A DNA stretch of 64,000 bases from Catajapyx aquilonaris. Its lineage: Eukaryota. Position 1 is the first letter of the stretch, and every line of letters begins with the position of its first letter. The stretch is taken from positions 62,001-126,000 of the forward strand of contig KZ537997.1 in NCBI GenBank assembly GCA_000934665.2. The letters are read 5' to 3'. Below are positions 1,073-62,100 of this stretch, piece after piece. The notes beneath the pieces were generated by a model. That model was not told the origin of the DNA. It searched no databases and was given only the letters and a program-made list of their open reading frames with translations. Position numbers and translations under genes: made by a program.

Positions 1073-1830
1073 TACAGGGTTTGGCAAAATTTATAACAGG
1101 ATTTGAATCACGTGGTATGGGGTGCTATTTGCACATGAGCGAGAGATTGGGATGTGCTGGAGTGGGGAAGGTATGCCATTTGCAAAAATAGCGTCGTGGT
1201 CAGCAGAAAACCATGCTTTCGTCGTGGAGGATTATTTTGAAAATAATGAGTCCCCCATAGCTGTACAAAGTATCTTTCTTCGTCTTTTTGGGCTGGAACC
1301 TCAGGACAAAGTCCCTGACCACCGGACGTTCATAAAGTGGGTGAAGCAGTTCTGGGACACAGCTTCAAGCCGGGACCAGACAGCACTGGATGTAAAAGGA
1401 CACATCAGACCCCTCAACGGAGCTTCAAATGGCCTATCGCTGAGAACTTCAGAGTAGAGTATTGCTTACCTCTTGTACCCGTTGAGGGGTCCTGTGTTCT
1501 TTGACGTCCAGTGCTTTCTGGTCCCGGCTTGAAGCTGTGTCCCAGAACTGCTTCACCCACCTTATGAACGGTCTGGTGGTCGGGGACTGTGTCCTGACGT
1601 CCCAGCCCAAAAAGACAAAGAAATATCCTTTGTACAGCTACGCGGAACTCATTATTATTTTTTAATGTAATTCTCCACAACAAATGCATAGTGTTCTGCT
1701 GACCATGACGCTATTTTTGAAAATGGCATACCTTCCCCACTCCAGCACATGCCAATATCCAACTCATGTGCAAATAGCACCACCGTACCATGTGATTCAA
1801 ATACTGTTATTCATTTTGCCCAACCCTGTA
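1073..1830. mobile_element. Long foldback MITE (~350-bp arms), TA-flanked, Tc1/mariner-like ends
   Basis: Ends tacagggtttggcaaaat... and ...attttgcccaaccctgta; the arms (1073-~1417, ~1480-1830) are reverse complements over their whole length. Confidence 0.85.
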
Positions 1831-4417: not shown

Positions 4418-7400
4418 TTACTGCTCCTTTTTTGGCTCATCAAGATGCTCAAAACCATCATCTGAATTTCCATTGACAGTGTGTTTCATTGGAAGAGTTG
4501 CCTTCTGGTCGGTCTCACTTCCTGAGCCCTGCTCCTTTATATCTTTTGCATCCGGATCCTGCTCCAAGGAAGTAGATCTCTTCGCCTTGCGGTGGCTCCA
4601 GAAGTACTTGTCAAGGCGTGTGAATCTGTACTTGAGGCTGGCCTTCTCATCCACCTTCTGCGGTATGACCACTGAGGTTGTAATTGTATTTCCCAGGAAG
4701 AGAATAAAGAAGAGGGCACTCGACACTGGTACCTGCAAGAGAATACAAACAGAAATGGTCACATGGTGCAGGTTACTACCTTGCACGAATATGAAAAACA
4801 ATAAAATAATGGGCATGTTCTAGGGATGCTGAAATAGAACTAATAACAATGCTGTCAAGTTGTACTATCGGACGCATAAACAATGTCCGGGGAGATTCTT
4901 CGTTCAGCCTTGCGGAAGCAACCCATTGCACCTGGGTAGCTAAGGGAGGAGGGAAAAAACTCAGCAGATGAGCACGGACGTACACACAAGTGTGTGTGTG
5001 CACATCTGTGCAATGGTTTGCCTCCACCAGGCTGAACGAAGACTCTCCCCGGACATTGTTTTTGCGTCCTATAGTACATTAGTAGCATTATTCCTATCAA
5101 GAAATAATCTCCCCAGCCTGAGAAAATACTGCTGACTAACCTGCCAAGGTGAGTCAGGCTGAAAGGCTAGCTGGTAGAGCTTGTATGCATTGTACAGCTC
5201 GAAGAGATATCCGATGTATAGGAATGGCAAGAGGAATGACAGCCCTCTCCACATCCAAGAGTGGAAGCCCTCTATAGTAATGTCCATATTGTGCCTCTGT
5301 CCCAGAGCTTTCAACCGATACAAGCATCCTCTCTGGTACCGGAACTGTAGGTACTGAACAAAATTGATGTACACATTGAACAGCATGAACTGTAGTCGGA
5401 AGGAGTAATAAGCTGGACCCTGTGGCCAGATTAATAGGATTGCAGCCAGGACGGTGGAGATAAAGTGGTGGGCTCGCCACCAGCCTTTGATGCGTGAACC
5501 GTTCACCTTCAGGATGCTCTCGCGGATTGTCAGAGTGCAGTAGTACCACACTAACAGGAACATGTACGATAGATCCAGTACCCTGAAAGAATGCATCAGA
5601 GTTTTGGTACTTAATGGAATGCCCCTCATATGATAGAGCTTCTAGTCCAAGTAAGTGGCAATTTGGACCATGTTTCTGTGAAACACCACCAGATAACATA
5701 AAAGTGGCACTTCCTTTCCATGACTGGTAATGGATGGTTAACATCCTGTAACTTCTGTAAACTTGGACTAGAATCCTTGCAATTTACATAGTCAAGTGGT
5801 ATAATTATATTAGCTACCTGTTATTTGTCACAAGGATAAGCAGTGACATCAGTGTCCCAATCCCACAGAGGATCAGCTTGAACTTTTCATATTCATCTTT
5901 ATATGCAAACCTGCAAAAATTCAATATATATGCTTGGTTTCTTCACCTTTTTATTGGGCCGTTAAGAGCTAAAAGTTGTTAAATGCTTCATAAACAAACT
6001 TAATTGGCATTAGCTCTTAACTGTTGGATTGCAAAAGTTGAAGAAACTGATTTAATGCCCAACTATACATCTTGTGATGACGAAGTACTTACTTTTCTTC
6101 CTTGTTTAGAATGGAGACATTGACATTTCCAAGTATGACTTTCAGGTAAAGACCATTTGGCTTGGGCAATGCCTGCTCCATTTCATTAAGTTGCGCTTCT
6201 CTCCTCATAACATCCTTGGTCATACAGTACTTCTCCTCTTCCAATTCTTTTCCTTTCACTCTGTAATGTAAATACACGGCTCAATTGAATCAACCTTTAG
6301 CATTACATAAGCACTTTCACGAGGTAAACTTTACTACACAGATGAAAGCTTCTAGCTTCTGGTATATTTTTAAATAGGCAATAAGAGTCCCTAACTATAA
6401 AAATAAATTGCTGATTCATTGGCCCACCCTACAGGCACAAAACATGTCTAGTGATAAGGAAAAAGGAACAATTCATGACTAATAATTTCCTTCCTCCATG
6501 GCTATCATGAGATGACAGACATGTTTAAATTGTGTGAAACTTGCTGCATTTGTGCACAGTGTGTCTGGTTATATAACATTCTTATGCAACTGATAACTAT
6601 AGCAGGAGAAGATATCAGGATATCTTTCAATCTGTCCAGTAGGTGACATGGTTCATACAATACTCTCTGAACTTATAATGACTCGTGTATCATTTCCTTT
6701 CAACAGCACTGTATTTGTACTCTTTCTGCAAAATCCAATAATAACATCGAAATAGTAGTGTTGAGCTTTGCGGCATAGGTCAAAACCTAGTTATGCAGCT
6801 AATGATAACACTGCTTAGACAGCTGCATAAATCTGTGAAATAAACACCTATTTTCAGTAATGAGTTATTAGGTCTTAAAGTATTTTCCACTTGCAATTTG
6901 TACACAAATTCAGGGGGTGGATTCATCAAATGTCGGAAGTCATAATTTCATTGTAACCATAGTTATATATATGCCGGCCTTGGTGGACTAGTGGTTAGCG
7001 CGCTCGCCTCTGGTCCCAAGGTTGTGGGTTCGAACCCGGCCAAGGTTGGTGACTTTTCTCTGGGTGGCAGAAAAGTGAGAGTGCGCCTTCCTTCAGAGGG
7101 GAAGTAAATCCGTCGGTCCCATGTGCTTGTGACATTGCACGAGTGCACGTTAAAGATCCCCAGAGTGGCCAAATTTCCAGGAGAAGGACCACCCCCTGGC
7201 GTCGGTGTTGAGCCTTAGAGGCAGAAATAGGCCGACATTAAGCCCCACTGAACCCAGTTAGTTAATTGTGAGTAACTATGGTTACTACCACTTACGACGA
7301 AAATATTATTTGACTTACAACATGTGATGAATCCACCCCCCATGACTCCTTGTTCACCATTCAACTCAATGGAGACTTTCAATTGTCATACCCCTACATT

Positions 7401-17700: not shown

Positions 17701-19998
17701 AGCAGGGGGTTCCCCTGTCAAAGCAGGCTGACGATGGGATTGGTCACACACACTACATTTTTTATATGCACTGTGCACCAGAATTTGCATATTCTCACAG
17801 CCTGTACACTCACCCATTTTCATTGCATCATTTATTTAAGTGGGCACTACAGTAATCGACCTTCAAAAAATCGATTTTTTATTTTATTTTTGAAAAAAAT
17901 CAAGTGTCTTTTCCTGCGTCGAACGCGGCAAACCGTGTCCCGAATTTCAAAAAATTGGCGCGTCAGCTCTGGCAACAACCTTAGGAATCTTTTAACTTGA
18001 AACACATTTTTCTCAGTTTGCCGGATTTGGACACTGTCACCATCGCCCAGGCCACAAAAATTTAGTTATGGACTTCCCGCTTCACCAGATTTATCCTCAA
18101 ACATGGCGCTATCGTTCGGCCTAAAAGAATTAGCCTGCTCGAACTACTTCTATTTTTTACTTTCATTAAATGTTGCTTAATTTTGTAGTTATCTTTCTGA
18201 AATCATCAAAAAAATACTAAAACGATTTCAAAAATTATAATTCTAGGTCAAACGAAAACTACATGCTCAAGGAAGCCTGAGGTCCAATCTGACAGTTGTA
18301 GGTTAACCCCAGCGCCCTAAATCGTGGTTACAGTGGCGTGACGTCACGTGGCCCTGGAGGCCCTTCGACACACAAACGTGATTCGATTATAGGCGCTAAT
18401 AGGTCTGTGACTTAAGTACATTCATGAAAATGAAGTCCAACTTCTTGTCATTTTTGTTTTCCTTATTTCTTTCTTTGGGGGGGGGNGGCAAGTTTTCACA
18501 AAACCCTTGATTTTGACTGTACTGCATTAATACGGTACCAGAAACATTCCAAAAAATTTGGCAGGGATCAAAATTACAGAAATCTACCTCAGTTATTGTT
18601 GCATGCAGGCCACCCCCTGGATATACCGGCATGCTGGTCAACCTTGTTTTATACCGGCATGCCGCTTTATGAGAGGTAATATGGTAGTGTCATGCTATGC
18701 AAGGAAATGAAGATTTTAATGTAACTTACATAAGTTGCAGAATTTTTTTACAAATTTGGGGCTACATTAGTGCTCATCCACATGCTGTACACAGTGCATG
18801 TAATATAAGGGTTATCCAGATGAAAATGTGTATTGTCATGAATTTTTTGAATCCAAGAGCAGAAGAAATTAAACGCCCTTCGTATTCATCCATTTACAGT
18901 CTCTGATGAAGTACGACACATTTGACTGCATCTCTGTGAGCCTGCCTCTTATCCATTATGAAGCTGCCACACTGGAGGGTCTCCTGGCGCAATTTGTAGC
19001 AGAAGAGACTATTGCTGGAGTCATATGTGAGTCCTGCTCACGCATCAAGCATACCAAACAGCAGAGAGCACTGCATCATGGGGGAACCAAGAGTGAGGTG
19101 GTGGTTCCTGATGGACTTCACAGGGATGCATTCAATAGATCCAATGGGGAGGTCCCAGTTCCTGTGGAACCTACACCAGATGTACCACTTCCAGAAAGGA
19201 CCAAAGGAGAGGTTGCACTCCATGAAAGACACAATAATGAGTCAGCACTTTCTGATAGGCAAGAGGCTGTTCACTCTGACAAGCCTAATGGTGATGTGAC
19301 ATTACCTGGTGAACCCTCAGGAGTTGTGGTTATTCCCAAAGGGGATATATATGAATCCCTTACTCACAGCAAGACCAAACCTTCACCTGAAACCACGTCT
19401 TCCACTACTGCAGATATGGAGGTTGTAAGGAGCACGTTTCAGAAGCAGCAGGTGATTGGGAAACTTCCCCGCTGCCTGTGCATACATGTGCAGCGAACTG
19501 CTGCTACGAAGGATGGAAGGCAGTTTAAAAGAGGAGACCACGTCAAGTTTGGGGAGGAGCTTGACATGGGGAGATTCATGCAGGGTGCAATGAGGAGAGG
19601 TGGAAAGAAGATGGCTGAGGGGGAGAGTGGGAGTAAAAACAATAGAGATCACCGCTACAAGCTGAGGTCTATTGTTGTGCATGTGGGTGACGTGTCTTCA
19701 GGGCACTTTGTCACTTGCAGGAGGGGACCATCTGACTCCAAGGCTTACGATCAGTAAGTATATGGTTCATGTGTCGTGAGGATCTGATATGCATCTCAAA
19801 TGCCACTCACTTACAGTTGGATGTTAAGTTCATCCTTTATGCGGTGATATTAGTATGCCTCCCATGTGCACATATTATCCTTAATTTCATTTGGTTAATT
19901 TCAGATGGTACCATACATCAGACGCTACAGTGCAGAAGACTAGTCTGGAGCGTGTGCTCCAAGAGAAGGCATACTTGCTATTTTACGAAAAGATCTGA
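14731..19998 (+). CDS. USP30: Ubiquitin carboxyl-terminal hydrolase 30 (mitochondrial outer-membrane DUB)
   Basis: Exons ~14731-14842, 15274-15432, 15835-15995, 16892-17337, 18900-19754, 19905-19998; intron 2 is GC-AG. N-terminal TM ([16 protein letters not shown]), Cys box [19 protein letters not shown], His box [13 protein letters not shown], and WYHTSD with Ser at the third catalytic position as in USP30; ends AYLLFYEK. Confidence 0.92.
16206..16771. mobile_element. TA-flanked pogo/Tigger-like MITE in USP30 intron 3
   Basis: ta|cagttgaatccggataaaacag ... ctgttatatccttattcaactg|ta, with subterminal tataac repeats. Confidence 0.75.
17413..18684. mobile_element. Non-autonomous DNA transposon in USP30 intron 4, with a nested TTAA-flanked (Kolobok-like) element at ~17836-18530
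   Basis: Outer TIR ccgtattacctctcataaagcggcatgcc / ggcatgccgctttatgagaggtaatatgg with repeated taccggcatg; inner ends ttaagtgggcactacagt / actgtactgcattaa. Confidence 0.7.
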
Positions 19999-32753: not shown

Positions 32754-35700
32754 TCATCTCTCTGTGAGTTTCAGCAATGTTGGTTCACTCGGAACAGCGA
32801 TCATCCTCATAACCATGTCAACATCATTCTTGTTCATGATCTCCAAATTGTATGACTGAACCAGCTAAATAAAATAACATTTATTTACTTTCCTGAGAGG
32901 GCTTAGATATAGCATTTAAAAGAGATTATCTCATACTAAATACCACCTTCGAATTATTATATGAAACCTACCCTTCCAATGAGGACATACATCTGTAGTT
33001 CTGCGATCCTCCTGCCTATGCAAGACCTGGTTCCAAAACCAAAAGGCAGGCACGCATAAGCATCACTCAATGTCCCATGCGGTCCATTATCAGCTTGAAA
33101 GTTAGCACTATCATCTTCTGACCCTCTTTCCCACCTCTCAGGCCAAAAGCGTTGTGGTTCTGAGAAGTAGCTGGGGTTTCTCCCGTTGGTGTAAATTGAT
33201 AACAGGATGAGTTTCTGGTAAAGAACATTCAAAAATAAGGACTCTCTATTCACAGCAGCAATTATTGTGTAAAAAGTGTTCATGATATTTGCTTGTGAAC
33301 TTACACCTGCTGGAATCTTGTATCCTCCTAAGACACAGTCTTCAGGCAGAAATCGAGTGAGGAATGGTGCGATAGGATACAGCCTAAGCGCTTCCTTTAC
33401 CACACGCTTCAGGTATCCCAGGTGAGAAACTTGTGATGGAGTCAAAGGTTGTCCATCTGGACATACGCTCTGAACCTCTTTCAGCAGCTTCTCTTGCACT
33501 TCAGGATGTTTTCCCAGCAAATACAGGGCCCATTGAGCTGTGTATGAAGTCTGAAATAGAAGGCCTATGTTTGAGCAATATGTTTAACATTAAAAAGAGG
33601 AAGTGTGTTAAGAGACATACAGTGTCAGCAGCTGCCAGAAAGAGATCAGCAACGATTCTGACAATGTCTTCTTCCGACATGTTTTCTTCTTTCATCTTGT
33701 GGAGAATTCCATCCTGTTCGACAGAAGAGTGATCGGAACCAAGTTCCGAGAGCTTATTGGAGACAAAAGTTGTGGCTGAAATGAAATGATGCAAAATGTT
33801 ACACTTCATACAATGTGCCAACTTCCTGTGTGACACAGTACTATTGTTCAAACACTGAAGTACGTTATATATGGTCACATTGTATCTCGTGAGATAAAGG
33901 ATATATTGTACCAGTATTGCAGTGCAGTGCAAAGTAATCGCATCTCACAAAAATTTACTATCAATGACAAGCTTGAACTTTGAGATGTTTCTGATAATAT
34001 ACAGTATACGTATATACACCTGGAGGGTTATGGACCGTAAAATAAACATGTTGCTTACACATTCTTGCAAAAAAACGTAAATCGGAATTTTTAACTACAG
34101 GCTCTTGATAAAGACACGGAATTGCAATATTGCGATAAAATATGCGTGAAGGTGACATGCAACAGTTTCTCGCAGGAATGTGCTGACACTGACCTATTGA
34201 AAGGGCAGAATCAACAGCCTGCGTGAATCTTCTCCACACTGGAAGGTTAAGAGCTGCTGCCAGTTTCGGAGGTACGAGGGTCATCTGCGCACTTTCCTCG
34301 AATATCTGATGGATGTTGCTCACAAATTCTTCTTGGTATCCAGCGAATTCACTGTGTGTTCTCGTGAAGTTCAATCCAAACAGGAGGGCCATCAAGCCTG
34401 TAAAAAATTTGCTGAATTTTTATACTGTGTTACAGTGTTATAGTTTTCATTCCAAGTGTTGTCCATTGTAGCTTGGAATGTCTAAGGTTAGGAACCTGTG
34501 TGGACTGCAGCCAACGAGGAAGTAAGTCATGCCAAGAATGTACAATGCTACTTCTAGTGAATTGAGTAATAATTGCGGTACTCGGAAATGTCTGCTTTTC
34601 TCGAGGCTACTAACATACATTGGAATTTAGTTCATGACACGTATACAATGTTGCACTCACTTTCTATGGACCACCTATACAGTTCTTTGTCCAGAGACAT
34701 GATGACTCCATCCTTTCGACAGCTATCAAGACGGTTGATTGTTGATGTCACCACGTGGTCATAAGCTTGGTGGTAATCCACAAGCGTCGATTGTTTCAGT
34801 AGCAGTCGACTCAAAATTCTTCTGAACCACAACCATTCTTCTCCATCCCTGTATAAACATCATTGTTATTAATACTTTTATATTAATCTGAGTAAGCCCT
34901 GTCCTTGCTCATATTGGCGGTGACAGGAGTACCACCTTGAAGTCTATGAAATATCCACCGATACGGATTTGAGCTCAATTTTGATGTAATAACGTCATTG
35001 GGTAATTATAGATTTACACTTCGAATTAAATACCAGTAGTTACATTCAGTGCATGCGTATGAATCTTCCACGTATGTGGCTAAGGAAATGACCGGCTATT
35101 GGCCTTTCTCAGAGCATGTGGGGGAACAGGTCCGACAAGTTTCCCTGTATTCACATAGTCTACGCACACGCACACATCCGCACATTCGTAAGTGCAGTTA
35201 CACGTGCACATTCCATCACATTTTTTGGGCGGATAATCCCGGATATTGAAACACCATCTTTGTAACAACTTGAACTTGTCAAAAAAAACACTGATATCCA
35301 CCTGATGAAGATATGGCACAGGGAAACAATACACTACAAGAGGCATTGAACTCATTATATCTGGGCAAGATGATTTCGGCATGCGGAATAGGATAGCTTT
35401 CTCTCTCTCTCATACGTTGGAAGTAATATTGTGAAATTAATTTCCAGCCATGATATTAGTAAACAAGCTAATAAATCGGTCATGATATGCGGCATGCGCG
35501 ACCGACATGGGCCATTGGCGAATCTGACTCTTATCAAACATTTAGCAATAGGACGCCAAAGTCAACTCTGGCTGTTACAGCAAGGTTGATAACCCCTATG
35601 TGTACACAAGTCCTGTCATGTTCCATATTGTATGCTTACATGAAAAAAAGTCCTCTTCGACAGTGGTACTTCTCATTGTAGACAATCCAAGGCTCAGGTA

Positions 35701-36598
35701 GAAGATGCCTCGGATATTCACCTTCGTGTCTAAACACCTCACGTGTCATATCAGCATCCGCCACAAAAACCGCCTCAACTGTCCCCAACGTCTCTTTGTA
35801 AATCGGTCCCAACTGGGCATGCCTACTATTCACATACTCGTGAATTTTGGCCACCGATCCAGCCCGCATCAGGTCAAGGGTCGTCCCTAGGATAGGCAAT
35901 CCTCTTGGGGTTGGCACCTCCGAAAATGGCAACCCTTCTTCTTCCTTCAAACTAGCCCTGAAATGTACATCGGAATAGTTCAAGGTTGCCCCAAATATCA
36001 GTGCATGATGCAAACATATCCCTTCGAAGGTACTGTTCAGTCACAAATAGCCCGAGTCAGGAATATCTTGGAATGTCTCAGTTGCCTGAAATCTCTCATC
36101 AGGAGTAATCATGGGCGACATAATCGGCAAAAGGGGTAACTGATGGGGGTAGTTGGCACACGCCACCGTTTCCTAACTGATGTGAACCATTAGCCACTTT
36201 TTACCCCTTTTCTCCCACCCTTGCATTCCAGCCAGAATTTATTGAAGGATATAAATGTCTCAACTCCAGACACTTTTGGCCTAAATCCTAATTAATATGG
36301 CGGCTATGGGCTCCCATCGTGGAAAAAACCGGGTACGGCATGGAAGGTCAAAAGCACTCTTATTTTGGTTAGGGCCGTCGAAAAAGAAGCTAACTGACCT
36401 TGGTCTCCGAGGTCTTGTGGTGACCATGGACTTCGAAGCCTGGTTGAAAGGACATTGGTTCGCGGTAGATGCTGATTCTGTTGCTGCTGCCGCCGGCAAG
36501 GTGGACCGCTGACGGGTGAAGGGCAGGTTGCCCCGGGGCAGGCTTTTGTTGCCTCCATGGCGTTGCAATGTACCCCAAAGACATGCGATCTTCCTCAT
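32754..36598 (-). CDS. Cyp315a1: Cytochrome P450 315A1 (shadow, ecdysteroid C2-hydroxylase, mitochondrial clan), 8 exons
   Basis: Exons 36598-36399, 35957-35640, 34848-34661, 34397-34194, 33775-33621, 33550-33305, 33214-32972, 32864-32754. I-helix IVADLFLAAADTTS, EALRLYPIAPFLTR, PERW, heme motif PFGFGTRSCIGRRIAE, basic mitochondrial presequence. Confidence 0.88.
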
Positions 36599-39500: not shown

Positions 39501-42128
39501 TAGAAGGACAGGACCTATTGGAGCAGGGGATTGAAAAGGGATAGCTTCCCTTTCAAGTTCATGGTCAAGGATTTGGGCAAGGGGATGGGGTGTTTGAATT
39601 TATTGTGGAGCACCCACTCAGGTGTTCAGTTATCCACTGGGGGGACACAAGAGTTGATGAAGGAAGAATAGGGCAGTAGCTGGTGGGTGGGGTTGAACCA
39701 GAAGGACCAGAGAGGGTCCCTTCTTTAAAAGAAATTGAAAACTGGGCCCTCAGGTATTCTTTCCGGGCAGTAAACGGGCAATTCATAACCTTACTTAACT
39801 AGACGTTTCAATTGCACCTTTTGTATTGCCTTCCCATTCAGAAAATGGGGGGTAATCAGACACTACAGTGAAATACCAAAAAAAATTTGGTTGAATAAAT
39901 ATTTTCGGACCATATAAACATGACCTGCCACACTTCAACTCTTGAAAAGCGCCAAATAGAAACTTGTTTTGTAGCATCCCAAGCTTTACCCTTCCCAAGG
40001 GAAAAAGAGTTGGAAAGTGTGCTTCCGGGCGCCTTCTACCTGTGGAGACCCCCCCTGTATGACCTGAGGAGACGGCTACCCTTGAAGGGAACCAAGGGCG
40101 GCGATTTTGCAGACTCGGAAACTTGGGCCTAAGCTTGGTTAACCTTGGCCTTGGAAAGTATTAGGCCTGGGTTACTCCCTATCATACACGCTTTCACCTT
40201 ACGAAGGCTACTGCTTTGTGCCATGGACGAATGACGTGTGTTGCACCTTGCAAATTGGTGTGACTCATTCTTAATAGGCTCAGAAGGATTATGTGATACG
40301 ACATACTGGGTCAACAGGAAGTCACCTGTAAGCTCTTGACACGGTTAAATCGTGGTGGCCTTTCATTTTTTAATAAAGAAACTATGTTATAATAAATTAT
40401 GTAACTAGTTCATACTCACAACCACCAGAGGCGCTGCCTATTACGCAGGCGCAGAACGGGGGCCAATTGAAAGCGTTGAGTAAACAATGTAAGGGAGCCA
40501 ATCAGAAACCTCGGTTTTGGCGGTAATATTCTCTTTTCTAAAGCTGACCATGTGCTATTAACTTCGACAGACAACCTGTCTCGATCTGTGTCCCTTGTTA
40601 CCTTGTAGCGTGTCTACGATGCTTGCGGCGTAGTTGTACCGGCGTAGCATCTCAGACACCATTATCAGCTTTGCTTTCGAAGGTCGGTCAAAAATAGGTA
40701 ATCCTACGTTTAATCCTATTCGGTAGGTGGACCTACATGGCGTAAAGTCGGTCTGTGGGTCGCGACTCGCCGTACGTGTATTCTTCTGCTTCTAAGGGAC
40801 GTCAGATTTCTGAACCAGAAAGGGCGGTTTGTCCTTTCGGAACTTACCTGTTTCTCCTAGGAGACCACTAAAGCTGAGTGAACTGTGCCTGTAGCAAACT
40901 AGACCTTGGAGACTATAGCCGGCAGCCTTTTAAGGTTTATAAAGTAACGTAAATACCAGTAAAAAAACAAGTCTAAAATAGAAAATACTGTTGTTCAAGT
41001 ACGTATATAAGTAACTCAAAGGTCCACATTACTGAAGCTGCAATTACGTACCTTATTGTGCCTTATTTGTTGCTTAGAATTTTTTGTCTCAGTTTTTATA
41101 CGCATTTCTTCGGTCAGTAACTGAATAGATTCTTTAATTGGAACGAGTTGATGGCTTGTGACCATGAACTTTGGACGGATGCCCATCAATATACTGCATA
41201 TATCATGTGAGTGAGATATGTTTAGCGACATTTAATATGTAGGTCGAATACTCTATACGATTTCCAGCAGCGTGTTCGCTTATTGAGTTCAGTTTATGCA
41301 GCAGGGCATTAGAAAAGGTGCTGCTTATCTCGTAGATTTCTAATTACAAATATGAATTAAGTCTGTAGTATGCAGATGAGAGAAATTTTCCGATTATGTA
41401 TACCGTATAGGAATTTTCTCCTTATTTTTTATTCATACAGCTGGTCGGTCACATTTGGCCAAACAAGCGGTACATCCTGGGAGATATGGAACCCTCCGCA
41501 CGAGCATGGATATACCCTATTCAAAATCCAAGAGATGCCTTCGTAATAACCGGGCCTTCACTGCATACGTATAGTGGCATATGATGCAAAAACTATATGC
41601 TACCAGTTGCTCTAGTTTCATACCGATATAGTAATGTCAAAGGGTATGCAAACTGGAATATGCCCGAGAACGAAAGCCTATATGTCTACCTAATCGGCCA
41701 TACATACTTATCACCCTTCAGTATTACCTTGATAAGAGGTTATTCATCCTTTCTTTAAACACATCAGGTTGATGAGATCACACTATTGATGCACCTGCAT
41801 TTGAAGTTAGAATTCTCAGAAGTGATTCGTAACAATATTCATAGGTGATAATAACTTTATTAAACACAGTATGATACACAAATTACATATTGCAACATGC
41901 AATATTTTGTCACTCCTCAACGCTGCATTGCGAGTGTCTCTGCAGTCATGTAGCGTGGGCCTTCTGTTGCCGTATTACTATATTGCAACTCTCATCTACG
42001 ACCTTAAAAAGTCGTTCCCTTGTGTGAGCTGACAGTGAGCTGCATTTGGGACAGCAATGGCAGAGAGCTGCATTTATTATACTGTACAGTATTATACCAA
42101 GATGAAACATCAACATGCCGCAGGGGAA

Positions 42129-43398
42129 TCAAGGCAAAGTCTTGAAGCATCTTAAGACAATATCCTCAACGCCCATGGCCACAACGCACACCATGACCAG
42201 CATTGCTCCCAGTATGCTCGTCCAGTCTGGTATCTCTCCGAACACCGCCACCTGAATGACGTAGGCCAGAACAATGTCCATTGACCTGGTCACCGCTACT
42301 CTGCCAGCGCCTTCCAAAGCCAGCGCCTTTGCCACCAAAACCTGTTAATTAAACAACAGTTAATTACCTCTAATATGTTTGCACTAGTAAGAGCATGTGA
42401 CTTACCTGCCCACTCATTCCAAAGATGGACATGATTATTACAAGGACCCAGTCAGTAGTGTTGGTAGGGATGGAGTAATGGCCCAAAATGACCACCAGTG
42501 CACCGCTGATGACCAACGACCAGAAGGAGAATTGAAACACTACGACGGAATAGTGCACTTCCTTGCACTTCCTCATGATGACTATGTTGATAGCAGTGAA
42601 GACTGTTCCCAGCAGGGCAGCTACATATCCCAGGATTTGATGGTGGTGATGTTCCGATCCATGGTGGTCTCCTGGTTTTGTCGGGGCAGCTTGAGAGGGG
42701 GCATTGGGCATGTCAGGAAACAGGAAAGGTGGCTTGGAGATGAGGACCACACCGCTGACCAGAAGGCAGACGATTGCTGTCCTGTAGAATCCACAAGGTT
42801 CCCTCAACCAGAGATGAGACATTACCATGACGAAGACTGGTGAGCTGAAGATGATGGTGGCAGCGTCTCCTAGAGGAAGAGTTCTGAAGGCGTAGAACAT
42901 CAACGCCAGGGTAGTTCCTCCAACCAGACCCTGCCCAAGTAGAAGCAGTCGATGTCCATGAGGACCCAACAAGTTCTCCCTTCTGTACAACGCAATGGGC
43001 AGGAGACATGCCACTTGGAACAGTGATCTGATGGCCAGAAGCTCCATTGGGTTGATGTTTGTCAGGTACTTGACGGATCCGGAGCATAGGGTGAAGAACA
43101 CACCTGAGCAGAAGGCCAGAAAAATTCCTGTCCAGTTGGCTCCAGTGCTTTCCTCGTCGATTTGTCCTTTGACCACTACCACCCGCGGTACCCCCCTCGA
43201 TCCATCAGGAGACACCCAGGTTGGCTGAATTGCATCGTAACTCTTCCCAGGAGGAGGTGCACTACTGCCACCCAACAGACCTGTCGATTCTGCTTGCTTA
43301 CTGCCATTATTTTTGTCTTCATCTACATGAATTGACACCAACTGATCCTTATCACTCTTGCTTCCAGAACGTAGTGTAATAATTTCTGGAAGACGCAT
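42129..43398 (-). CDS. SLC35G1: Solute carrier family 35 member G (EamA/DMT) transporter, 2 coding exons
   Basis: Exons 43398-42406 and 42341-42129. About 10 TM segments; LPLGDAATIIFSSPVFV, LISKPPFLF, KALALEGAGRVAVTRSMDIVLAY, SILGAMLV. Confidence 0.85.
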
Positions 43399-43400
43399 GT

Positions 43401-43700
43401 TTAGGCTTGTGTTGTCTTTTCTGATTCTATGGCGTCGTCGTCTGTAATTTCGTCTTCTTCACCAACTGGATTCAGAGCCTCTGCAGGAGCCTCTGAAGTT
43501 GAGAGTCTCAAAGGTATGGTGTCTGAAGAAGTAGTGTCTGCAAACAATAAAGCACGTTTATAGCAACTAATAACTGATAGTGACATATATCACTTACCTC
43601 GATTAGTATCAGCACTAAGCAGGGTCTTGTCCTCTGGTACAACTTCAACGAGCTTCTTTCGTGAAACTTGAGATCTTCGGGAAGAAAAAATAGTTCCCAT
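43401..43700 (-). CDS. Spliced upstream ORF, 79-aa putative N-myristoylated microprotein
   Basis: Exon 43700-43598 (tccATGg; donor cgag|gtaagt) plus exon 43537-43401 (acceptor tttgcag) gives MGTIFSSRRSQVSRKKLVEVVPEDKTLLSADTNRDTTSSDTIPLRLSTSEAPAEALNPVGEEDEITDDDAIESEKTTQA*. The stop lies 2 nt before the SLC35G ATG. Confidence 0.6.
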
Positions 43701-46013
43701 GGACTGTTAGCACATGAATCTATGTGCAAAATGGACTAGTGCGAAGGATCGTCCCACTTATATGCTGTTGGTCAAATATTAATCCCCTTTATAGTGCTTT
43801 ATGATCACGTATCTACATCTGGTTGTTGCAATACCACCTCTAAATCCTCTTAGACAAATGCGATCATCCGGTACATCGCCCGCCGGGATAATAATCCATA
43901 TGTTGGCAGATTCACCTTTACCTGTGGACATGGGGGACTTGCTCTTGCAATCTAACGAGAGGTCAACGGAATATTGTCAACTTGCTCAATCTTCTTTTCG
44001 ATGCATCATGCACAAGTTACCTGTGCATTTGTAAATTCGGATATCCTGTTGCAATAATTTGTCCAAATTTGTAGCAAATAATACAAAATAACAGTGAAAA
44101 TATGCCCTGATTGATTGGACATTCAATCGCATCTGGGTAATTATTTACATGTATTGCAAATATTAATTGAAATTCAGCCCGAACAAAATATTACACCATG
44201 CCTTACATAATGATGACGGTATTGAAAGGTAATGTAAAAGATTATCCTACCAGAATATTGTTTATGCGTTTTACTGAATGTTGGTCTACTTATGCAAGAT
44301 TAGCGAGGAGGGATAAAGTTGTGTGGTGGAAGGTCACTTAAATCTTTATTATACATCGCACGTTTTATAAGACTCACCTTGTCGTGTACCTAAGGTCAAT
44401 TTTTTTACACTCTCAGACAAATTTCATGGCTCTAAGGCACATGTACTGAGGACTGATTCCTAAGACATCTTAACGGGTCAAGGACACACTTTAATTTTTC
44501 CACGACCAGAAGAAAACTCGGAGGTCACCCATATTATGATACTCGCCTGTATAAACCAGTTTGGCTGGTTCTGTTTATTTTGGTACTATGAAGCAAAAAA
44601 AATTTCAAGTTCAAGGTTTGAGAGCTACCTAAAATACCTGAATGCTTGTTATGTAACATATACATGTTACACACCATCGCGGAGTATACCGATAAAATAT
44701 TATTCGGTGCAAGTCATTATTAATATCGTGTTCTAAAATATCGAAAACTTACACATGGTAAAGCTAATGTGCCCCAGAAAATAATGAAATTTATTAGTGT
44801 GTGCGCATAATTTCTGCACTTAAATGTCAATTATGGAATTAAGAAATGAAACAACATGCTCTCCTGGTGACATCAGATAGAAAGAACATTGACTCGGTGA
44901 CATATCTACAACCGTGCATCTGATATGCTCCTGGTTCATATGAGGTTATAGATGTGCAGTCATCAACCGCACCAGATGGCAATTTGACATATGTGCCTTT
45001 GTAATTTCTCTTTAATATAATGGGGTAAATGACTCGCAAAGTTGTTATGGTTTAAACTTCAGGCTCGTGTTAGATTAATGGCTTTAATAATGCGGTCTGG
45101 CGATAACCCTACGCCCCCTGAGATAATAACAGCTATGGGATATTCACCATTAACTTACGATATTATTAAAAATTATTGCTTTCAGAATAAACCGCTTTTA
45201 TCTTTATCGACATGTTCAGCCACGATGGAATGTACCGGTCACTTCACACCGGATACTTCACAGAAACTCTTTGTTCTTGATAAAGATATTTAACTTCCGT
45301 CAGAATCGAAGGCCATTATGCAGACATGCATCAGGGACAAAAGAGATTATTTCCTAACTGTTGCAAGCAAGTTACAAGGGTGATGGTGACATCAATAATA
45401 GCAACAGTCGGTGGTCTTATTGTCCGGTATTCTCAGGTTTGTGTGATGACGGTTGCAGAGTCATCAGGGGCCATTTCCTCCTACTCTTCTGAAGCAACAA
45501 TCTGACTATTGGTGTTACGTCACAAAGTCGGCCCATATGAAGAGCCAAAACATATTTTGCATACAAGTTAGCTATACATTAGCTAATATTTTGGACAACT
45601 TCGAAAAGTAATTTTTCGAAAGCAACTGTATTATAACAAGCAATTAGCGTGAAAAATATATATACAAAATGGGCATTAAAATTACAGTAATTTGAAAAGT
45701 AATGGATACGGTCACAAATACGGTAGTGATGATTTGACCGATTGTGGAACTACGCGCAATTCTCATCGCTGTTTTTTGTAATATCGACACAAGTATTATT
45801 TTCATCGTCATAATTTTCTCCCCCACATGGCTTGATACCAGATGCTTCAAGTTGTTATCGTGTCTTCGTGAAGCACATTTTGCCCACATATTTGGACTCA
45901 CAGGTACTAGTGTAAGGGTATGAAGTGGTATAACACCCATACAACGTTGTGTGTTCTAGCTGCAGTGGTGTAAGCACATTGCACATTGTTTTACAACGAT
46001 ACACTTATGAACC

Positions 46014-47713
46014 ATGGCTGCAGACTTGAAGGACATGTTACCCTTCCTCAGTGAAGACTCCAGACCAGAGGTGAAGCACATAGCTGCACAGTACATTCTA
46101 GGTGAGACTACCGACTACCGAGTTGCCGTGTACTGTACAGTACCCGTAATACGTATTTCTTAAAATTTTTACAGGTTTAACAGCTGCACCAGAGGGATTG
46201 CAACTACTAGGAGATAATGACATTATTAAACACCTCACGAAATGCCTGCAAGTAGAGGTTAAGACAGAAATAGGGAAAAAGATTTGTGACGCTGTCATTA
46301 ACCTGTCTTCTGACGACAATGTGGCCTCTAAAATTGTATCAGAAGATGAAACGTTTGTGCCGTTTCTGATTGGATGCACCGTGGATTCCAGTTTCGAGAT
46401 GAGCGAGCGTGCCTCCATGCTGCTGGCCAATATCACCAGACAGCCTGATTTGTGCCGTGTTGTGTTTGAATCTATTCAAGCCACTTCACAGAAGCTGGAT
46501 GGACTTGTGTCCGTCCTCGGTCAAGGAAAATCAGTACCTCAACATATCGGATCCATTTTGGCCAACCTGACCCAGATGCATGAAGCACGACAGTATGTTG
46601 CAACTGGGTTTTTTTTTTTTGCATAATACTGTATGCATTTCAGAAAAGGCATTATCCGCAATGGATGTGTCAGTGGAAGTGTTGCGGAAATTGATGGGCA
46701 TATACTCGTAGACTTCATTTTGTACTGCAGAGGGATGTTTTAAAAGGGAAAGACCTAAAATATGGCGATTACATGGGTGTAACTGCCACTTCAAAAATAT
46801 TTTTACATATGATTATGTCACTATTCAAAACAAGAATGATAATAATTTTTATCAGCTGTAAAAACATTGATAATAATCTTAAGTGAATATGTTGTAAGTT
46901 AGCTTTGAATATTGCTACTGTCTCATTATGTTTGAAAAATTTCAGGTACATTCTGGACAAGGATAAGGGTCTTATTTTGAAATTACTTCCTGTCATAAGG
47001 CTGAGTGACTCTGAAATCAATCGTAGAGCAGTTGCAGCTTCCATAAGGAACTGCTGCTTTGAAACAGGTTAGGTAACCAGTCAAATGTTTAAGTGGTAAG
47101 TACTTGTCAATAGTACACTGTATGTGGATTTTATTACTGCAGGATATCATGAGTGGCTGCTTGGTGAAGATGTGGATATATTACCTGCTTTGTTGCTTCC
47201 ATTGGCTGGGCCAGAAGAATTTACAGATGAAGAGATGGACAAACTGCCATTAGACCTTCAGTATCTTGGCGAAGATAAGCTTCGAGAACCAAACCCAGAA
47301 GTACGCTGCCTGCTTCTGGAAGCTCTCACTCAGGTTAAGACCATTTCCAGTGGCCATTAACTTGCTGTAATAAGGCTATGGTTAACTGCTGAATTGTTGT
47401 AGCTCTGCAGTACAAGGAAGTGCCGTGAAGTAATGAGAGAGAAAAATGTGTATGTTATCCTGAGGGAATTGCACAAGTGGGACAGAGATAGTTCCACCTT
47501 AACAGCTTGTGAAAACTTGGTTGACATTTTGATCAGGTAGGATCTGAAAACAGAGGTTTCAAAGACGTACATTAGTGTTGCAATATACTCAATATATGTT
47601 TTTTTTTTCTCTCTCTATCTAGAACGGAAGATGAAATTGGACATGACAATCTTAAAGACTTGAACATTCCAGATGATGTGACAAAGAAATTAGAATCTTT
47701 GACAACACAATAA
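46014..47713 (+). CDS. HGH1: Protein HGH1 homolog (FAM203, eEF2 chaperone), 6 exons
   Basis: Exons 46014-46101, 46175-46592, 46946-47067, 47143-47333, 47403-47536, 47623-47713. Motifs MLLANIT, IRNCCF, HEWLL, ILPALLLPLAGPEEF..EEMDKLPLDLQYL..DKLREP, VYVILRELHKW. Confidence 0.93.
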
Positions 47714-58300: not shown

Positions 58301-59120
58301 CTTTGTTATTCCCGAAGTTACATGTACACCCTGTCGCACTCCTCAAGCTCTCATGCGTAAGAAAATTATTGCAAAATATCCGGCAGGAAGTAACTCACTT
58401 GAGATTTTAAAAACCTCTGTTTCTCATTATTGAAATGAATTATTCACACTGGCGAGGGACAAATTTATGACATTTTTAAAACACAAATAGTCCAAAAAAA
58501 AAGTGCTGGAAACACATGGCAGTGTAGGAGAGAGTGCCCTGGGCCTGAGCTAGGAAATACACCTAATAATTATCAATAATGGCGGTGAAGTAAGCGTGAA
58601 CTTGCCTCCCCCTAAAGATAATATTGTTCCCCACCTTTTTTCCCTCTGCAATATTCCACGAGAGAGAAAGCCGCTACTTTCTGAAACTTTAATTGCAGCC
58701 ACAAAAACTGAGGGCCTAAATATGAGTGTTGACAATTATTTTTACCCCCTTCGCCTCACCTACATTTCAACTCTACCCTGCTGTAATTATTTTTACACTT
58801 TCTGTAAAGTATTTTAATGATTTAAATAACTTGTAAGGTAACAGTACCGTATTTATTCGGTACACAATCAGTTCTTTGTAATTTGTCAGATGGCTGCAAG
58901 GTGGCAGCACTGAGCGGAGTCGACCAATTTGAACACCAGTTGGCAGCACTGAGCACAAATTGCACCAGAAGGCCGGGAGGAAAGGACCACGACTGCACAC
59001 GACACGACCACTGCATGGACCACTGCGATGTCTCCTCCATGCGGACCATCAGGAGACAGCGGTACCAGGAAGGTTCAGAAACACCATAGGACACCGGCGG
59101 TGGGCGATGAGGTTGTGTCC

Positions 59121-62100
59121 ATGGTGGCCGAGGGAAGCGGCATAAGAAAGAGGAAGAGGAACTTCACCACTGAGGAGGTCAGCGTGCTGGTGGATGAGGT
59201 GCTGCACAAGTATCCTTACCTGAGCGGGTCTGATATCAAGAAGACGGTGGGCACCAAAAGGGGGTACAATCAGCAGAAAGAGGCCTGGGAGAAGATTGCG
59301 CAGAAGGTCACCTCGCTTGGGTCAGTTCTGGCGGGCGTAGTAGGTGCAGAGGCGTATCATGGAGAGGGCAACTAATAAGTGCTCTGGAATGATTTCTGTT
59401 CTTGTGTACAGTACTGGAAAAATAAACGCTGCGAGCCGTACCCTACTTGCACAGGAAGCATGCTTGAGCTTGAATCATGCAGCATGCTTTCACTTGCTCC
59501 CGCTTGCTCGGAGCTGCTTGTGGGATTACAAGACTGTTATTTCCAGTAGTGTACCACAATCATGTTTAATTGAATTTTTTCTAATAATATTGGATTTAAA
59601 AATGAAACTGGGTTTCGTAGGGTGGATTGCAAAGACGTGGCCTGTCTAAACCACGATCTAATTGAGCCGTGGTTTAAACCTCGTTTCCCGGCTAAACATT
59701 GGGCTAAACCTCATCTTTGCAAGCGGAACCCCCGGTTTAAACTGCGATATAACTGAGCCATGGTTTAAACTCCGTCATTGCAATCCACCCTTTGTGTCTG
59801 TCGTTTGAGGGTCAATGGTATTATCAGTATTTTGTTGGCATTTATTAATTTGATGCACTTGCAAAATGTGGCATCCTGTCAGATGGGGTTACAGTGGGTA
59901 GGGGGGGGGGGGGTGCTTGTGTTGCACTGTGTTTAGCATGGCGTTTCATATAAAAGCACCTAGCCACACAAGTGAGAGGAATTGAATTTATTCTCCTCTC
60001 CAGCCTTATAAAGAGGCTTCCATTTCTGTATAATCAAGTCTCTTGCTTGTTTACAAGTGTTCCTGTCTTAATAATGAGAATATTGAGTTAACCTGAATGT
60101 CAACTGAGACTAATATTTCAACTTATTTTGAAATCCTGATATAGCGTGTCAACCCGAACATACAGGGATGTACGGCGTAAGTGGCAGGACATGAAGTACA
60201 TGGCTAAGGCCAAGGGGAAGCCACTGCGTGTGGAGAACAAAGCAGAACAGATCGAGACCCGTGAAGTGTACACATACTCCCGGAACTCAATGGAAAGGAC
60301 AAAACTGATCAAGACTGAAGGCAATACCAGTCACACTTATGATGGTAATGGGTTCACATTGTGCATTCCAAGATATATGATCCTAATTTTGATTAATTGG
60401 CCTGCAGTTACTGCTAGCAGCCATGAAGATTCTGTCACAGATAGTGCAAGTGATGATGAAGGAAGTTGTAACTCAGAGGAACCCACAGAATGGACTCCAC
60501 ATCTGCAGGGCACAGAAGGACCACCCTCACCATCCCTTTCATCACCGGATTCTTCCAGTGAGCAGATAGAAGTGTTGAGCGAGATGCGTTGCATATCTGC
60601 ATCTCTCAGGCAAATTGCTGAAGTCTCCCAAGAAAGATTGGCTGTTGAAAAGGACATGGCCAGCATCCTTCATGTGCTGGCTGAAGGATTAACAAGGTGT
60701 GTATTTTTAAAGCTAAGGTGAAAGAAAGTAAGTTTTATGACTCATTCTTATTAATTGTCTTGAAGTCAACAACAATGCCATTACTAGAAATGAGGCAGTA
60801 CTTTGTATGCACCTGTGATGCCAGTGTATGCCCAAATTTCCATTATGTTTAGTTTTTTCCGTTCAAACACAAAATGTTTTTGAAGAACTGCTAAGTAAAT
60901 GTTCATGTTTTACATGAGAAACAAAACCATGGCACAATAGTTAAGAGTGTCACAGAAAAACTCACAATATGTGTAAGCTTCTCTGGTGGGGATCTAGAGT
61001 AAGTCATAACACATCTTTGAAGTCAGGATCTTAAATTTCTGCATTTCTGCATTCTGCATACCATTCAAGATTATTTTGGTGTAGCTGTCTGTTTTTTCCC
61101 TATTGATCTGAAAATAATTTTGAAGAATGCACTTCTTATATCATGTGTGTGTAAAGCAATTGTTTTGCAGTGCAATGCTGCAGGGAAATTTTTGGGAAAG
61201 GCCAGACCACTGAGCATGTAGTATCAGTACAGGCAGCCCCCTGCAACTCATACGATATGGTAGCTTAATATAAAAGTCTCTGTCTGCGGCGCTGGCGCAT
61301 CCCCACAGGGATCTTGTGGTTCGGGCGGACGCCCGTGGACGCCTTAACCAATCTGAACCATCCCTTCCACTACAGCTATATCCGGAAGTAATTCACAAAT
61401 CGCCAGTCAGCCACCCAAACCACAAGATCCCTGTGGGGCCCCGCCAGCAACAAATTCCAGGCTGGGGGAGACTCTTATATAACAACCGTCACCATAGGGC
61501 TAGATAGGGAGTTGCGGGGGGCTGGTACTGTACAGGCATTTAAAGTTGGAAGATTATCCTATTCCTGCAATAGATATTCTGTAATACCATTCCGAAACCG
61601 AAAAGTTCAGTCTTTCGAAAAGTGTCTGATTCCAGGGGTTTTAGATGAGAGGTTGTCAACTTCTACTGTGTATGGACAGCCCATTGTTGTCATCCCTACC
61701 CCGTTGCTTCCACTCTCCACCCACAGGAATGCCAATGCTTTTTTAATAAGGTTGTACAGATGTAATTTATCCCCAATACCACGGAAGATTTATTATATTG
61801 TGCTTCATCCAAGAATTAGAACTTTGCTCCTAATGGGAATGTGCCTGGCACAGTACAGTACATAGTTGGGAAGTGTTAGACTTAGTGCTAGTGGACACAT
61901 GACCTTTTAGGAAGGCCAGTAATTTCACTTAAGTAGATCTGATGATAGTGGGTTTTAAGTAGTTCAAAGGGCCTGTATCCTCCTGCACTGTCCTAAGCCA
62001 GGGCATCGACGTTAGAACAGCGCTCTTGGTGTCATATTGTGTCATCCTGTACTATATCGCTCAGAAACATAGAGACGATTTTGCATTTGATTCATGTGTA

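What the first reader, a model, noticed from the sequence alone, without database searches (positions are those of the whole stretch)
43396..43700. Spliced, myristoylation-motif microprotein ORF abutting the SLC35G start: candidate bicistronic microprotein-transporter system
Seen: an ATG in good context (tccATGg, just after acceptor ctaacag) opens a frame that stays open across a 60-nt GT-AG intron in matching phase 1 and encodes 79 aa. Its stop and the transporter start form TAAacATG. The transporter frame has an upstream TGA, so the two frames are not continuous. Established: MGxxxS followed by basic residues (MGTIFSSRR..RKK) is the N-myristoyltransferase consensus plus an electrostatic membrane anchor. 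Inference: one mRNA could make a membrane-tethered acidic microprotein and, by reinitiation or leaky scanning, the SLC35G transporter. The ORF track misses this ORF because it is spliced.
Basis: partly seen in the sequence, partly recalled or inferred. Interest (0 to 1): 0.8.

Follow-up and report, generated by a model that had tools for sequence, protein, structure and literature searches.

The report
Upstream ORF before springtail SLC35G transporter
A 79-codon open frame really does sit just upstream of a springtail SLC35G1-like transporter gene, and its second half lies on the same RNA, but nothing shows that it is a conserved or translated microprotein, so it is most likely an ordinary upstream ORF in the transporter's leader.

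Summary
On the minus strand there is an ATG at 43700, a 60-nt GTAAGT..CAG candidate intron (43597-43538, phase 1), a 79-codon ORF, TAA-ac-ATG at 43403-43396, and a TGA (43461-43459) closing the transporter frame upstream.

The downstream gene is a complete EamA/SLC35G1-like transporter (401 aa). It is closest to springtail proteins.

One cDNA-like contig of a public run covers 43514 to 42017. It has 0 differences and 0 gaps and crosses the stop/start junction. So there is no assembly indel and no frame-joining intron in that form. The contig does not reach the ATG-bearing exon, so the 60-nt splice is not shown.

No relative of the peptide was found in 1.84 billion representative proteins, in 93 transporter homologues, or upstream of the one springtail-like relative locus.

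Codon usage, ATG depletion and RNA folding are uninformative. The myristoylation pattern fits, but 1% of ATGs in the window fit it.

Best reading: a lineage-specific, probably non-functional or merely regulatory uORF that is passed by leaky scanning. A functional myristoylated microprotein remains possible, at about 0.13.

The parts
43598..43700 (-). Candidate exon 1 of the upstream ORF: ATG at 43700-43698, 34 codons plus 1 nt, basic N-half (pI 10.3) beginning MGTIFSS
   Evidence: Its presence in the mRNA is not shown.
43538..43597 (-). Candidate 60-nt intron, GTAAGT...TTTATTGTTTGCAG, phase 1. It contains an ATG (43586) and a TATAAA (43562-43557).
   Evidence: Its length is like the RNA-shown introns of 56, 64 and 73 nt. 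The splice itself was not observed.
43401..43537 (-). Exon 2 of the upstream ORF: acidic, Ser/Thr-rich C-half (pI 4.05), with TAA at 43403-43401
   Evidence: The stretch 43514-43401 is covered by X1 contig record 2 with no difference.
43399..43400 (-). 2-nt spacer (AC) between the upstream stop and the transporter ATG
42406..43398 (-). Transporter coding exon 1 (ATG 43398-43396, context AAACATGC)
   Evidence: Pfam EamA 1.5e-24; homologues; RNA contig
42342..42405 (-). 64-nt intron of the transporter gene (GTAAGT..AACAG)
   Evidence: Joint in X1 contig record 2; sequence
42129..42341 (-). Last coding exon of the transporter with TGA stop; the whole CDS is 1206 nt, 401 aa
42017..43514 (-). Span of the 1434-nt cDNA-like contig (X1 record 2, depth 155) that bridges the upstream stop and the transporter start
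43386..43410 (-). Alternative acceptor (GCGTCTTCCAG|AA). If joined to the exon 1 donor (212-nt intron) or to a GTGAAG donor at 43462 (77-nt intron), it would put the upstream frame in frame with the transporter.
   Evidence: Not used in the X1 contig.

Best explanation
The stretch is the 5' leader of the mRNA of a springtail SLC35G1-like (EamA) transporter. The transporter is a complete cistron of its own, starting at ATG 43398. The 79-codon frame upstream is a lineage-specific upstream ORF. If the ATG-bearing exon is spliced on as predicted (inferred, not shown), some scanning ribosomes start at its weak-context ATG and make an unconserved, disordered peptide. That peptide probably has no function of its own. 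The other ribosomes scan past it, meet no further ATG, and start at the near-optimal transporter ATG two bases after the upstream stop (leaky scanning). The ORF would then at most damp transporter translation.

Shown: the ORF anatomy, the separateness of the frames, and the continuity of exon 2 with the transporter on one RNA contig. Inferred: the splice, translation of the uORF, leaky scanning, and lack of peptide function.
For: 1. Exact anatomy.
2. X1 contig record 2 (1434 nt) covers 43514-42404 and 42339-42017 with 0 other letters and 0 gaps. It skips a GT..AG intron, so it behaves as cDNA and bridges TAAacATG with 116 nt on the upstream side.
3. The transporter is complete without the upstream ORF. 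87 residues precede the first membrane helix motif, against 61-104 in five springtail-like homologues. The tail carries the conserved PE[IV]I and Y/D-x-I motifs. EamA scores 1.5e-24.
4. No relative of the peptide was found. blastp against all 93 homologues gives best E 0.92. tblastn in L001 and L002 gives best E 0.90 and 0.47. The word-index search of longer proteins scored none of its 19 candidates at E <= 10. HMMER over 1,835,955,588 representatives gave 1 hit, E 3e-4, to an unrelated Cys-rich repeat protein. L001, the closest locus with DNA, has no ORF abutting its start.
5. Contexts are GTCCATGG upstream against AAACATGC downstream, with no ATG between 43700 and 43398 in the spliced leader. 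This is the same logic as Drosophila sloth1/sloth2 (passages of PMC9681215).
6. The peptide has no hydrophobic segment (maximum KD19 0.16), is rich in Ser, Thr, Asp and Glu, and matches no Pfam family.
Against: - The splice joining the ATG exon to exon 2 was not seen, so the mRNA may carry no upstream ATG at all.
- A 79-codon ORF from the first ATG, ending 2 nt before the main ATG and carrying a myristoylation-type start, is a combination rarer than each part alone and could reflect selection.
- The lack of homologues is weak evidence. No genome of a close relative could be searched, the best homologue is only 65-70% identical, exon 1 (34 aa) could not be searched by sequence, and short disordered peptides diverge fast.
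- The absence of ATGs in the leader is not significant: P(0) = 0.13 in 5000 dinucleotide shuffles.
Confidence: 0.4

Rival explanations
1. There is no upstream ORF on the mRNA at all. Transcription starts downstream of the ATG exon, for example about 30 nt after the TATAAA at 43562-43557, which lies inside the supposed intron. The leader is then a plain, ATG-free 5'UTR of about 120-135 nt, and the 79-codon frame is a chance open frame assembled from a chance GTAAGT..CAG pair.
For: - The RNA-supported leader (43514-43399) contains no ATG in any frame, so the transporter ATG is the first one in the contig.
- TATAAA lies at 43562-43557, 30 nt upstream of a CTACTTC initiator-like word (promoter consensus recalled).
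- Open frames of 60-109 codons are common: 249 in the window outside the training genes.
- GTAAGT-plus-acceptor pairs are no more frequent in the window than in shuffles: 3 against about 4.7.
- No conservation was found.
Against: - The donor AG|GTAAGT and the acceptor TTTATTGTTTGCAG|A are both near-consensus, 60 nt apart like proven introns here. Such a pair is expected by chance only about once per 27 kb of strand (2.34 per 64 kb).
- The frame stays open across it.
- TATA-like words are frequent here, three within 240 nt, so the one in the intron is weak evidence.
- Contigs cannot show an RNA start (statement of the tool).
Confidence: 0.3
2. One mRNA encodes a functional, N-myristoylated, membrane-tethered acidic microprotein of 79 aa and, by leaky scanning, the SLC35G1-like transporter. 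This would be a true bicistronic gene like sloth1/sloth2 or the SLC35A4 uORF microprotein.
For: - The ORF anatomy.
- Continuity of exon 2 with the transporter, and no indel.
- The start MGTIFSS followed by Arg/Lys fits the myristoylation pattern, which only 21 of 2044 ATGs in the window fit.
- Weak-then-strong ATG contexts, with no ATG in between.
Against: - No homologue in any search.
- The springtail-like relative L001 lacks it.
- Low-complexity composition with no hydrophobic segment and no family.
- The codon-usage score sits at the median of the null ORFs (49% of 249 score at least as high), though the test also fails to separate known exons.
- The splice and translation are not shown.
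Confidence: 0.13
3. Exon 1 is the alternative first coding exon of the transporter. Its donor (43598|43597) joins the acceptor at 43386|43385 (212-nt intron). This gives a transporter isoform with a 34-residue myristoylatable N-terminus fused in frame just inside the conserved PEII motif. The form seen in RNA would then be a second isoform that starts at ATG 43398.
For: - The join is in frame with no stop.
- The acceptor has a short pyrimidine run (GCGTCTTCCAG).
- The resulting 34 residues before EII match the spacing in relatives: 33 in P0059 and about 45 in L001.
Against: - The X1 contig runs straight through 43386.
- The join would remove the L-P of the conserved LPE motif.
- A 212-nt intron is three times the length of the three RNA-shown introns.
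- The exon 1 peptide shows no similarity to relatives' N-termini: shuffle P 0.23-0.61 in 5 comparisons.
Confidence: 0.07
4. The two frames are really one protein, split only by an assembly indel or rejoined by programmed -1 ribosomal frameshifting.
For: The frames overlap open over 43458-43404, and a -1 shift there would fuse them.
Against: - The RNA contig agrees with the assembly at every base from 43514 to 42404.
- There is no X XXY YYZ slippery heptamer in frame in the overlap.
- The leader RNA folds no better than shuffles, z = -0.72.
- Caveat: run X1 may come from the same source as the assembly, so a real frameshift allele of that individual is not excluded.
Confidence: 0.03

Closest known systems
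Drosophila sloth1/sloth2 bicistronic transcript (PMC9681215; passages read)
   Same: An arthropod mRNA with a 79-aa upstream cistron and a spacer of a few bases (5 nt there, 2 nt here). The upstream ATG context is non-optimal and the downstream one optimal. Leaky scanning is the route to the second ORF.
   Different: Both sloth peptides are conserved from choanoflagellates to man, are paralogues with a membrane helix, and their translation was tested with reporters. Here the upstream peptide has no homologue and no helix, the downstream ORF is a 401-aa transporter, and nothing has been tested.
SLC35A4 dual-coding gene with the uORF protein AltSLC35A4 / SLC35A4-MP (PMC12183330; passages read)
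   Same: A long upstream ORF in the 5' leader of an SLC35 family transporter mRNA, with a uORF-dependent effect on transporter translation.
   Different: AltSLC35A4 is conserved across vertebrates, is an inner mitochondrial membrane protein, and has been detected by antibody and mass spectrometry. SLC35A4 and SLC35G1 are different subfamilies. No similarity between the peptides was seen here, and no paper in the library links SLC35G1 with an upstream ORF (0 papers).
Ordinary regulatory or neutral uORFs in eukaryotic 5' leaders
   Same: An ATG-initiated frame upstream of the main ATG, not conserved as a peptide, which lowers initiation at the main ATG.
   Different: At 79 codons it is long for a uORF, and it stops 2 nt before the main ATG. 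Its presence on the mRNA is not yet shown.
N-myristoylated proteins with Arf-like N-termini (MG-x-I-F-[AS]; recalled, not from a call)
   Same: Met-Gly start, small residue at position 6, basic residues after it.
   Different: Only the first 7-9 residues resemble each other. There is no GTPase or other domain, and modification is untested.
Viral termination-reinitiation (calicivirus TURBS, influenza B BM2; recalled)
   Same: The stop and restart codons almost touch.
   Different: No UGGGA motif lies in the 120 nt before the restart site, and no virus is involved.

Membership tests
Eukaryotic bicistronic mRNA with two translated cistrons (sloth1/sloth2 type) | Both complete ORFs lie on one mature mRNA | tested here: inconclusive
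   The X1 contig joins 43514-43401 (the last 38 codons, stop included) to the whole transporter CDS. The ATG exon and the 60-nt splice were not observed.
Eukaryotic bicistronic mRNA with two translated cistrons (sloth1/sloth2 type) | The upstream ORF is conserved as a protein in relatives | tested here: not met
   No hit in 93 homologues, in L001 or L002, in the word-index search, or in HMMER over 1.84 billion representatives apart from one spurious hit. Limits: no close relative's genome was available, and exon 1 could not be searched by sequence.
Eukaryotic bicistronic mRNA with two translated cistrons (sloth1/sloth2 type) | Weak upstream and strong downstream start context, with no ATG in between (leaky scanning) | tested here: met
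   GTCCATGG against AAACATGC, and 0 ATG in the 239 nt of spliced leader. The ATG-free run is not significant, P = 0.13.
Eukaryotic bicistronic mRNA with two translated cistrons (sloth1/sloth2 type) | Both ORFs are translated | not testable with these tools
   No Ribo-seq or proteome data are available. No run on record as RNA was listed.
N-myristoylated proteins | N-terminal M-G-{EDRKHPFYW}-x-x-[STAGCN]-{P} (PROSITE-type pattern, recalled) | tested here: met
   MGTIFSS fits. 21 of 2044 ATGs with 7 open codons in the window fit as well.
N-myristoylated proteins | Myristate is attached to Gly2 by N-myristoyltransferase | not testable with these tools
   Needs labelling of wild type against G2A.
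SLC35G1-like / EamA (drug/metabolite transporter) family, for the downstream gene | Two EamA repeats and full-length similarity to SLC35G1-like proteins | tested here: met
   PF00892 at 1.5e-24 and 87.2 bits (cut-off 28.2), in 2 stretches. 93 homologues; the best are Allacma fusca at 65% and Orchesella cincta 'Solute carrier family 35 member G1' at 56%.
Termination-reinitiation (TURBS type) | UGGGA motif 1 upstream of the restart codon (recalled) | tested here: not met
   No TGGGA in 43520-43399.
Programmed -1 ribosomal frameshift | In-frame slippery heptamer X XXY YYZ in the overlap, followed by a stable structure | tested here: not met
   No heptamer in 43470-43399. Fold z = -0.72.

The most novel reading that the evidence does not exclude
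A young, lineage-specific microprotein has arisen in the leader of a springtail SLC35G1-like transporter mRNA. It would have a myristoylated, basic N-terminus that tethers it to a membrane, and an acidic disordered tail. Both proteins would be made from one spliced mRNA by leaky scanning, so their amounts are coupled. This would be an independent parallel to the SLC35A4 uORF microprotein.
Probability: 0.13. Interest if true: 0.55.

Novelty: new member of a known kind. Interest (0 to 1): 0.25.

Why it matters
If the ORF were translated and functional, it would be a second case of an SLC35 family transporter mRNA that also encodes a microprotein. It would also be a possible example of de novo gene birth in a 5' leader of a little-studied hexapod lineage.

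As the evidence stands, it is mainly a caution for annotation. The transporter should be annotated from ATG 43398 and not fused to the upstream frame, and the upstream frame should not be called a gene without RNA, ribosome or comparative support.

Tried and rejected
RNA runs
- One search listed no holder on record as RNA. It listed one run, X1, of kind '?'. Its contigs skip three GT..AG introns, so I treat it as cDNA-like.
- In one search no contig of X1 lay on 43515-45850, which includes exon 1, the candidate intron and the intergenic region. The bridging contig ends at 43514, 23 nt short of the acceptor. I do not count them as evidence.

Tests of coding and selection that gave nothing
- Codon-usage likelihood, trained on 7 pieces of 6 gene regions. 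The upstream ORF scores at the median of 249 null ORFs, but 14 leave-one-out chunks of known exons are not separated from the null either. The test has no power.
- ATG depletion of the leader. P(0) is 0.13 for dinucleotide shuffles, 0.23 for codon permutation, and 0.29 for the RNA-supported 116 nt. Not significant.

Searches for a related sequence that gave nothing
- Homology of the upstream peptide to N-terminal tails of 13 orthologues by tblastn on 43100-47000. There was no hit upstream of 43398 with E < 0.1.
- Smith-Waterman with 2000 shuffles in 10 comparisons. The lowest P is 0.010 (against the P0004 tail) and the rest are 0.23-0.89. The P0004 match lines up with a motif that the window's transporter tail already carries itself, so I read it as chance.
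- Internal duplication of the transporter's own N-tail: protein P = 0.64, DNA P = 0.42.
- A second copy in the window: none.
The ESM Atlas gave no usable hit.
- L002 turned out to be a GC-rich, thrips-like insect locus, of no use for the question.

Other checks that gave nothing
- Rfam on 43300-44300: nothing at E <= 1.
- Pfam on 9 open frames of 43404-45955: none reaches its cut-off.
- RNA fold of 43537-43340: z = -0.72.
- Whole genome of the window: not held.
- Earlier notes of this scan: none bear on it.

Full report
**Observation.**
- An ATG lies at 43700-43698.
- 103 nt follow, up to a consensus donor (GAG|GTAAGT).
- A 60-nt AT-rich stretch ends in TTTATTGTTTGCAG (43597-43538).
- 137 nt then run to a TAA at 43403-43401.

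Spliced, this is 240 nt: 79 codons plus stop. Unspliced, the frame stops after 36 codons. TAA, the bases AC and the transporter ATG (43398-43396) follow each other directly. The transporter frame is closed upstream by a TGA at 43461-43459. One detail needs correcting. The upstream ATG has G at +4 but T at -3 (CAGTCCATGG). The transporter ATG has A at -3 (CTAAACATGC).

**The downstream gene.** The ORF from 43398 has two EamA stretches (PF00892, 1.5e-24).
- A search gave 93 homologues with E <= 0.001 among the 8000 candidates scored. The best are the springtails Allacma fusca (65% identity) and Orchesella cincta ('Solute carrier family 35 member G1', 56%), followed by insect SLC35G1-like proteins. 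The window is therefore from a springtail or close kin.
- With the RNA-shown 64-nt intron (42405-42342), the CDS is 1206 nt, 401 aa.
- Its N-terminal tail has 87 residues before the first helix motif, against 61-104 in five springtail-like homologues. It carries the conserved PE[IV]I motif two residues after the Met.

The transporter therefore lacks nothing that the upstream frame would have to supply.

**RNA.** One public run holds the stretch (X1, kind not on record). Its contigs skip three GT..AG introns in the 6 kb laid, so they behave as cDNA.
- Record 2 (1434 nt, depth 155) lies on 42017-42339 and 42404-43514 with 0 other letters and 0 gaps.
- There is therefore no indel relative to the assembly in the 58 nt where both frames are open.
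- The only reasonable frame-joining intron (GTGAAG at 43462 to TCTTCCAG at 43386, 77 nt) is retained in this form.
- The last 38 codons of the upstream frame (stop included) and the whole transporter CDS lie on one assembled RNA.

Three caveats apply:
- A contig does not strictly prove a single molecule.
- X1 may come from the same source as the assembly.
- The contig does not reach the candidate intron or exon 1, so the splice and the presence of the upstream ATG in the mRNA remain unshown.

**Is the anatomy more than chance?** Only moderately.
- Stop-free frames of 60-109 codons number 249 in the window outside the gene regions used for training, about one per 500 nt of strand. The 62-codon open frame of exon 2 is therefore unremarkable.
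- GTAAGT followed 45-100 nt later by a pyrimidine-rich CAG/TAG occurs 3 times on both strands. Block shuffles expect about 4.7 (2.34 per strand). By my arithmetic, such a pair falls in a given 300 nt about 1% of the time.
- The myristoylation-type pattern (recalled from PROSITE) fits 21 of 2044 ATGs, 1.0%.
- The leader has no ATG between 43700 and 43398 once spliced, but 13% of 5000 dinucleotide shuffles have none either.
- A codon-usage likelihood test had no power.

The combination is uncommon for one gene. It is to be expected somewhere in a large scan.

**Conservation.** None was found.
- The peptide has no Pfam family.
- Against all 93 homologues it has no blastp hit better than E 0.92.
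- In the two metagenome loci that encode relatives, the best tblastn hits are E 0.90 (L001) and 0.47 (L002). These two are the relatives confirmed among the 121 stretches that matched a search pattern.
- The word-index search of longer proteins with exon 2 gave nothing (19 candidates, none at E <= 10).
- HMMER over 1,835,955,588 representatives gave one hit (E 3e-4), to a repeat of a 1168-aa Cys-rich protein that is clearly unrelated.
- L001, a springtail-like genomic contig (62% identity), starts its transporter with about 45 residues before the PVEVII motif. That start is shared with P0059 (alignment score 69). It has no ORF abutting its ATG.
- The exon 1 peptide and the whole peptide show no significant similarity to those N-termini, nor to the window's own transporter tail.

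There are limits. No close relative's genome could be searched. Exon 1 was too short for the sequence searches. Short disordered peptides diverge fast.

**The peptide.** It is 8.6 kDa with pI 4.3. The N-half is basic (pI 10.3) and the C-half acidic (pI 4.05). It is rich in Ser, Thr, Asp and Glu and has no hydrophobic segment. The start resembles Arf-type myristoylated N-termini (recalled).

**Mechanism.** If exon 1 is on the mRNA, leaky scanning is the likeliest route to the transporter.
- The upstream context is weak, the downstream one is near the arthropod optimum, and no ATG lies between them. This is what was shown by reporters for Drosophila sloth1/sloth2, whose upstream cistron is also 79 aa, with a 5-nt spacer (PMC9681215, passages).
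- Reinitiation after 79 codons with a 2-nt spacer is unlikely on general knowledge (recalled). The UGGGA motif of viral termination-reinitiation is also absent.
- A -1 frameshift would fuse the frames, but there is no slippery heptamer, and the RNA folds no better than shuffles (z = -0.72).

**Rivals.**
- (a) No uORF at all (0.3). Transcription may start downstream of exon 1. A TATAAA lies inside the 'intron', 30 nt before an initiator-like word, and the RNA-supported leader has no ATG.
- (b) A functional myristoylated microprotein (0.13). It has a real precedent on another SLC35 mRNA, SLC35A4/AltSLC35A4 (PMC12183330, passages).
- (c) Exon 1 as an alternative first coding exon joined to 43385 (0.07). 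The join is in frame with no stop but is not used in the X1 contig.
- (d) An indel or frameshifting (0.03).

**Verdict.** I commit to a lineage-specific upstream ORF in the transporter's leader that is at most regulatory (0.4). This kind of arrangement is known. No paper in the library links SLC35G1 with an upstream ORF (0 papers).

Noticed in passing
window 42637-42714 (-): The central loop between the two EamA halves carries a 26-residue insert ending in a His-rich run (…GDHHGSEHHHHQ). The springtail homologues P0001 and P0002 lack it. It may be a lineage-specific metal-binding loop.
   Followed up: partly
window 45851-46626 (+): The divergent neighbour gene on the + strand has a DUF383 domain (3.1e-09). 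An RNA contig of X1 shows two short introns in it (56 and 73 nt, GT..AG). The two genes are head to head, about 2.3 kb apart.
   Followed up: partly
window 43557-43562, 43757-43762, 43788-43793 (-): Three TATA-like hexamers (TATAAA, TATAAG, TATAAA) lie within 240 nt upstream of the transporter start. One is inside the candidate intron, 30 nt before a CTACTTC initiator-like word. They may mark alternative promoters.
   Followed up: partly
window 43707-43715 (-): A minimal upstream ORF (ATG TGC TAA) lies 15 nt before the 79-codon ORF's ATG. If it is transcribed, it would also affect scanning.
   Followed up: no
window 5072-5641 (-), 18873-19754 (+), 32960-36040 (-), 1107-1454 (+), 58953-59372 (+): Other genes in the window by Pfam: TMEM120A/B (3.9e-80), a ubiquitin C-terminal hydrolase exon, cytochrome P450 exons, a DUF4817 helix-turn-helix frame, and a Myb/SANT-like DNA-binding frame. 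The last two are of the kind seen in transposon-derived genes.
   Followed up: no
L001 2838-2960: In the springtail-like relative locus, an ATG directly followed by GTAAGT (2838-2846) could join an acceptor at 2922. That would extend the transporter by 12 residues in frame. This is speculative and rests on reading the sequence only.
   Followed up: no
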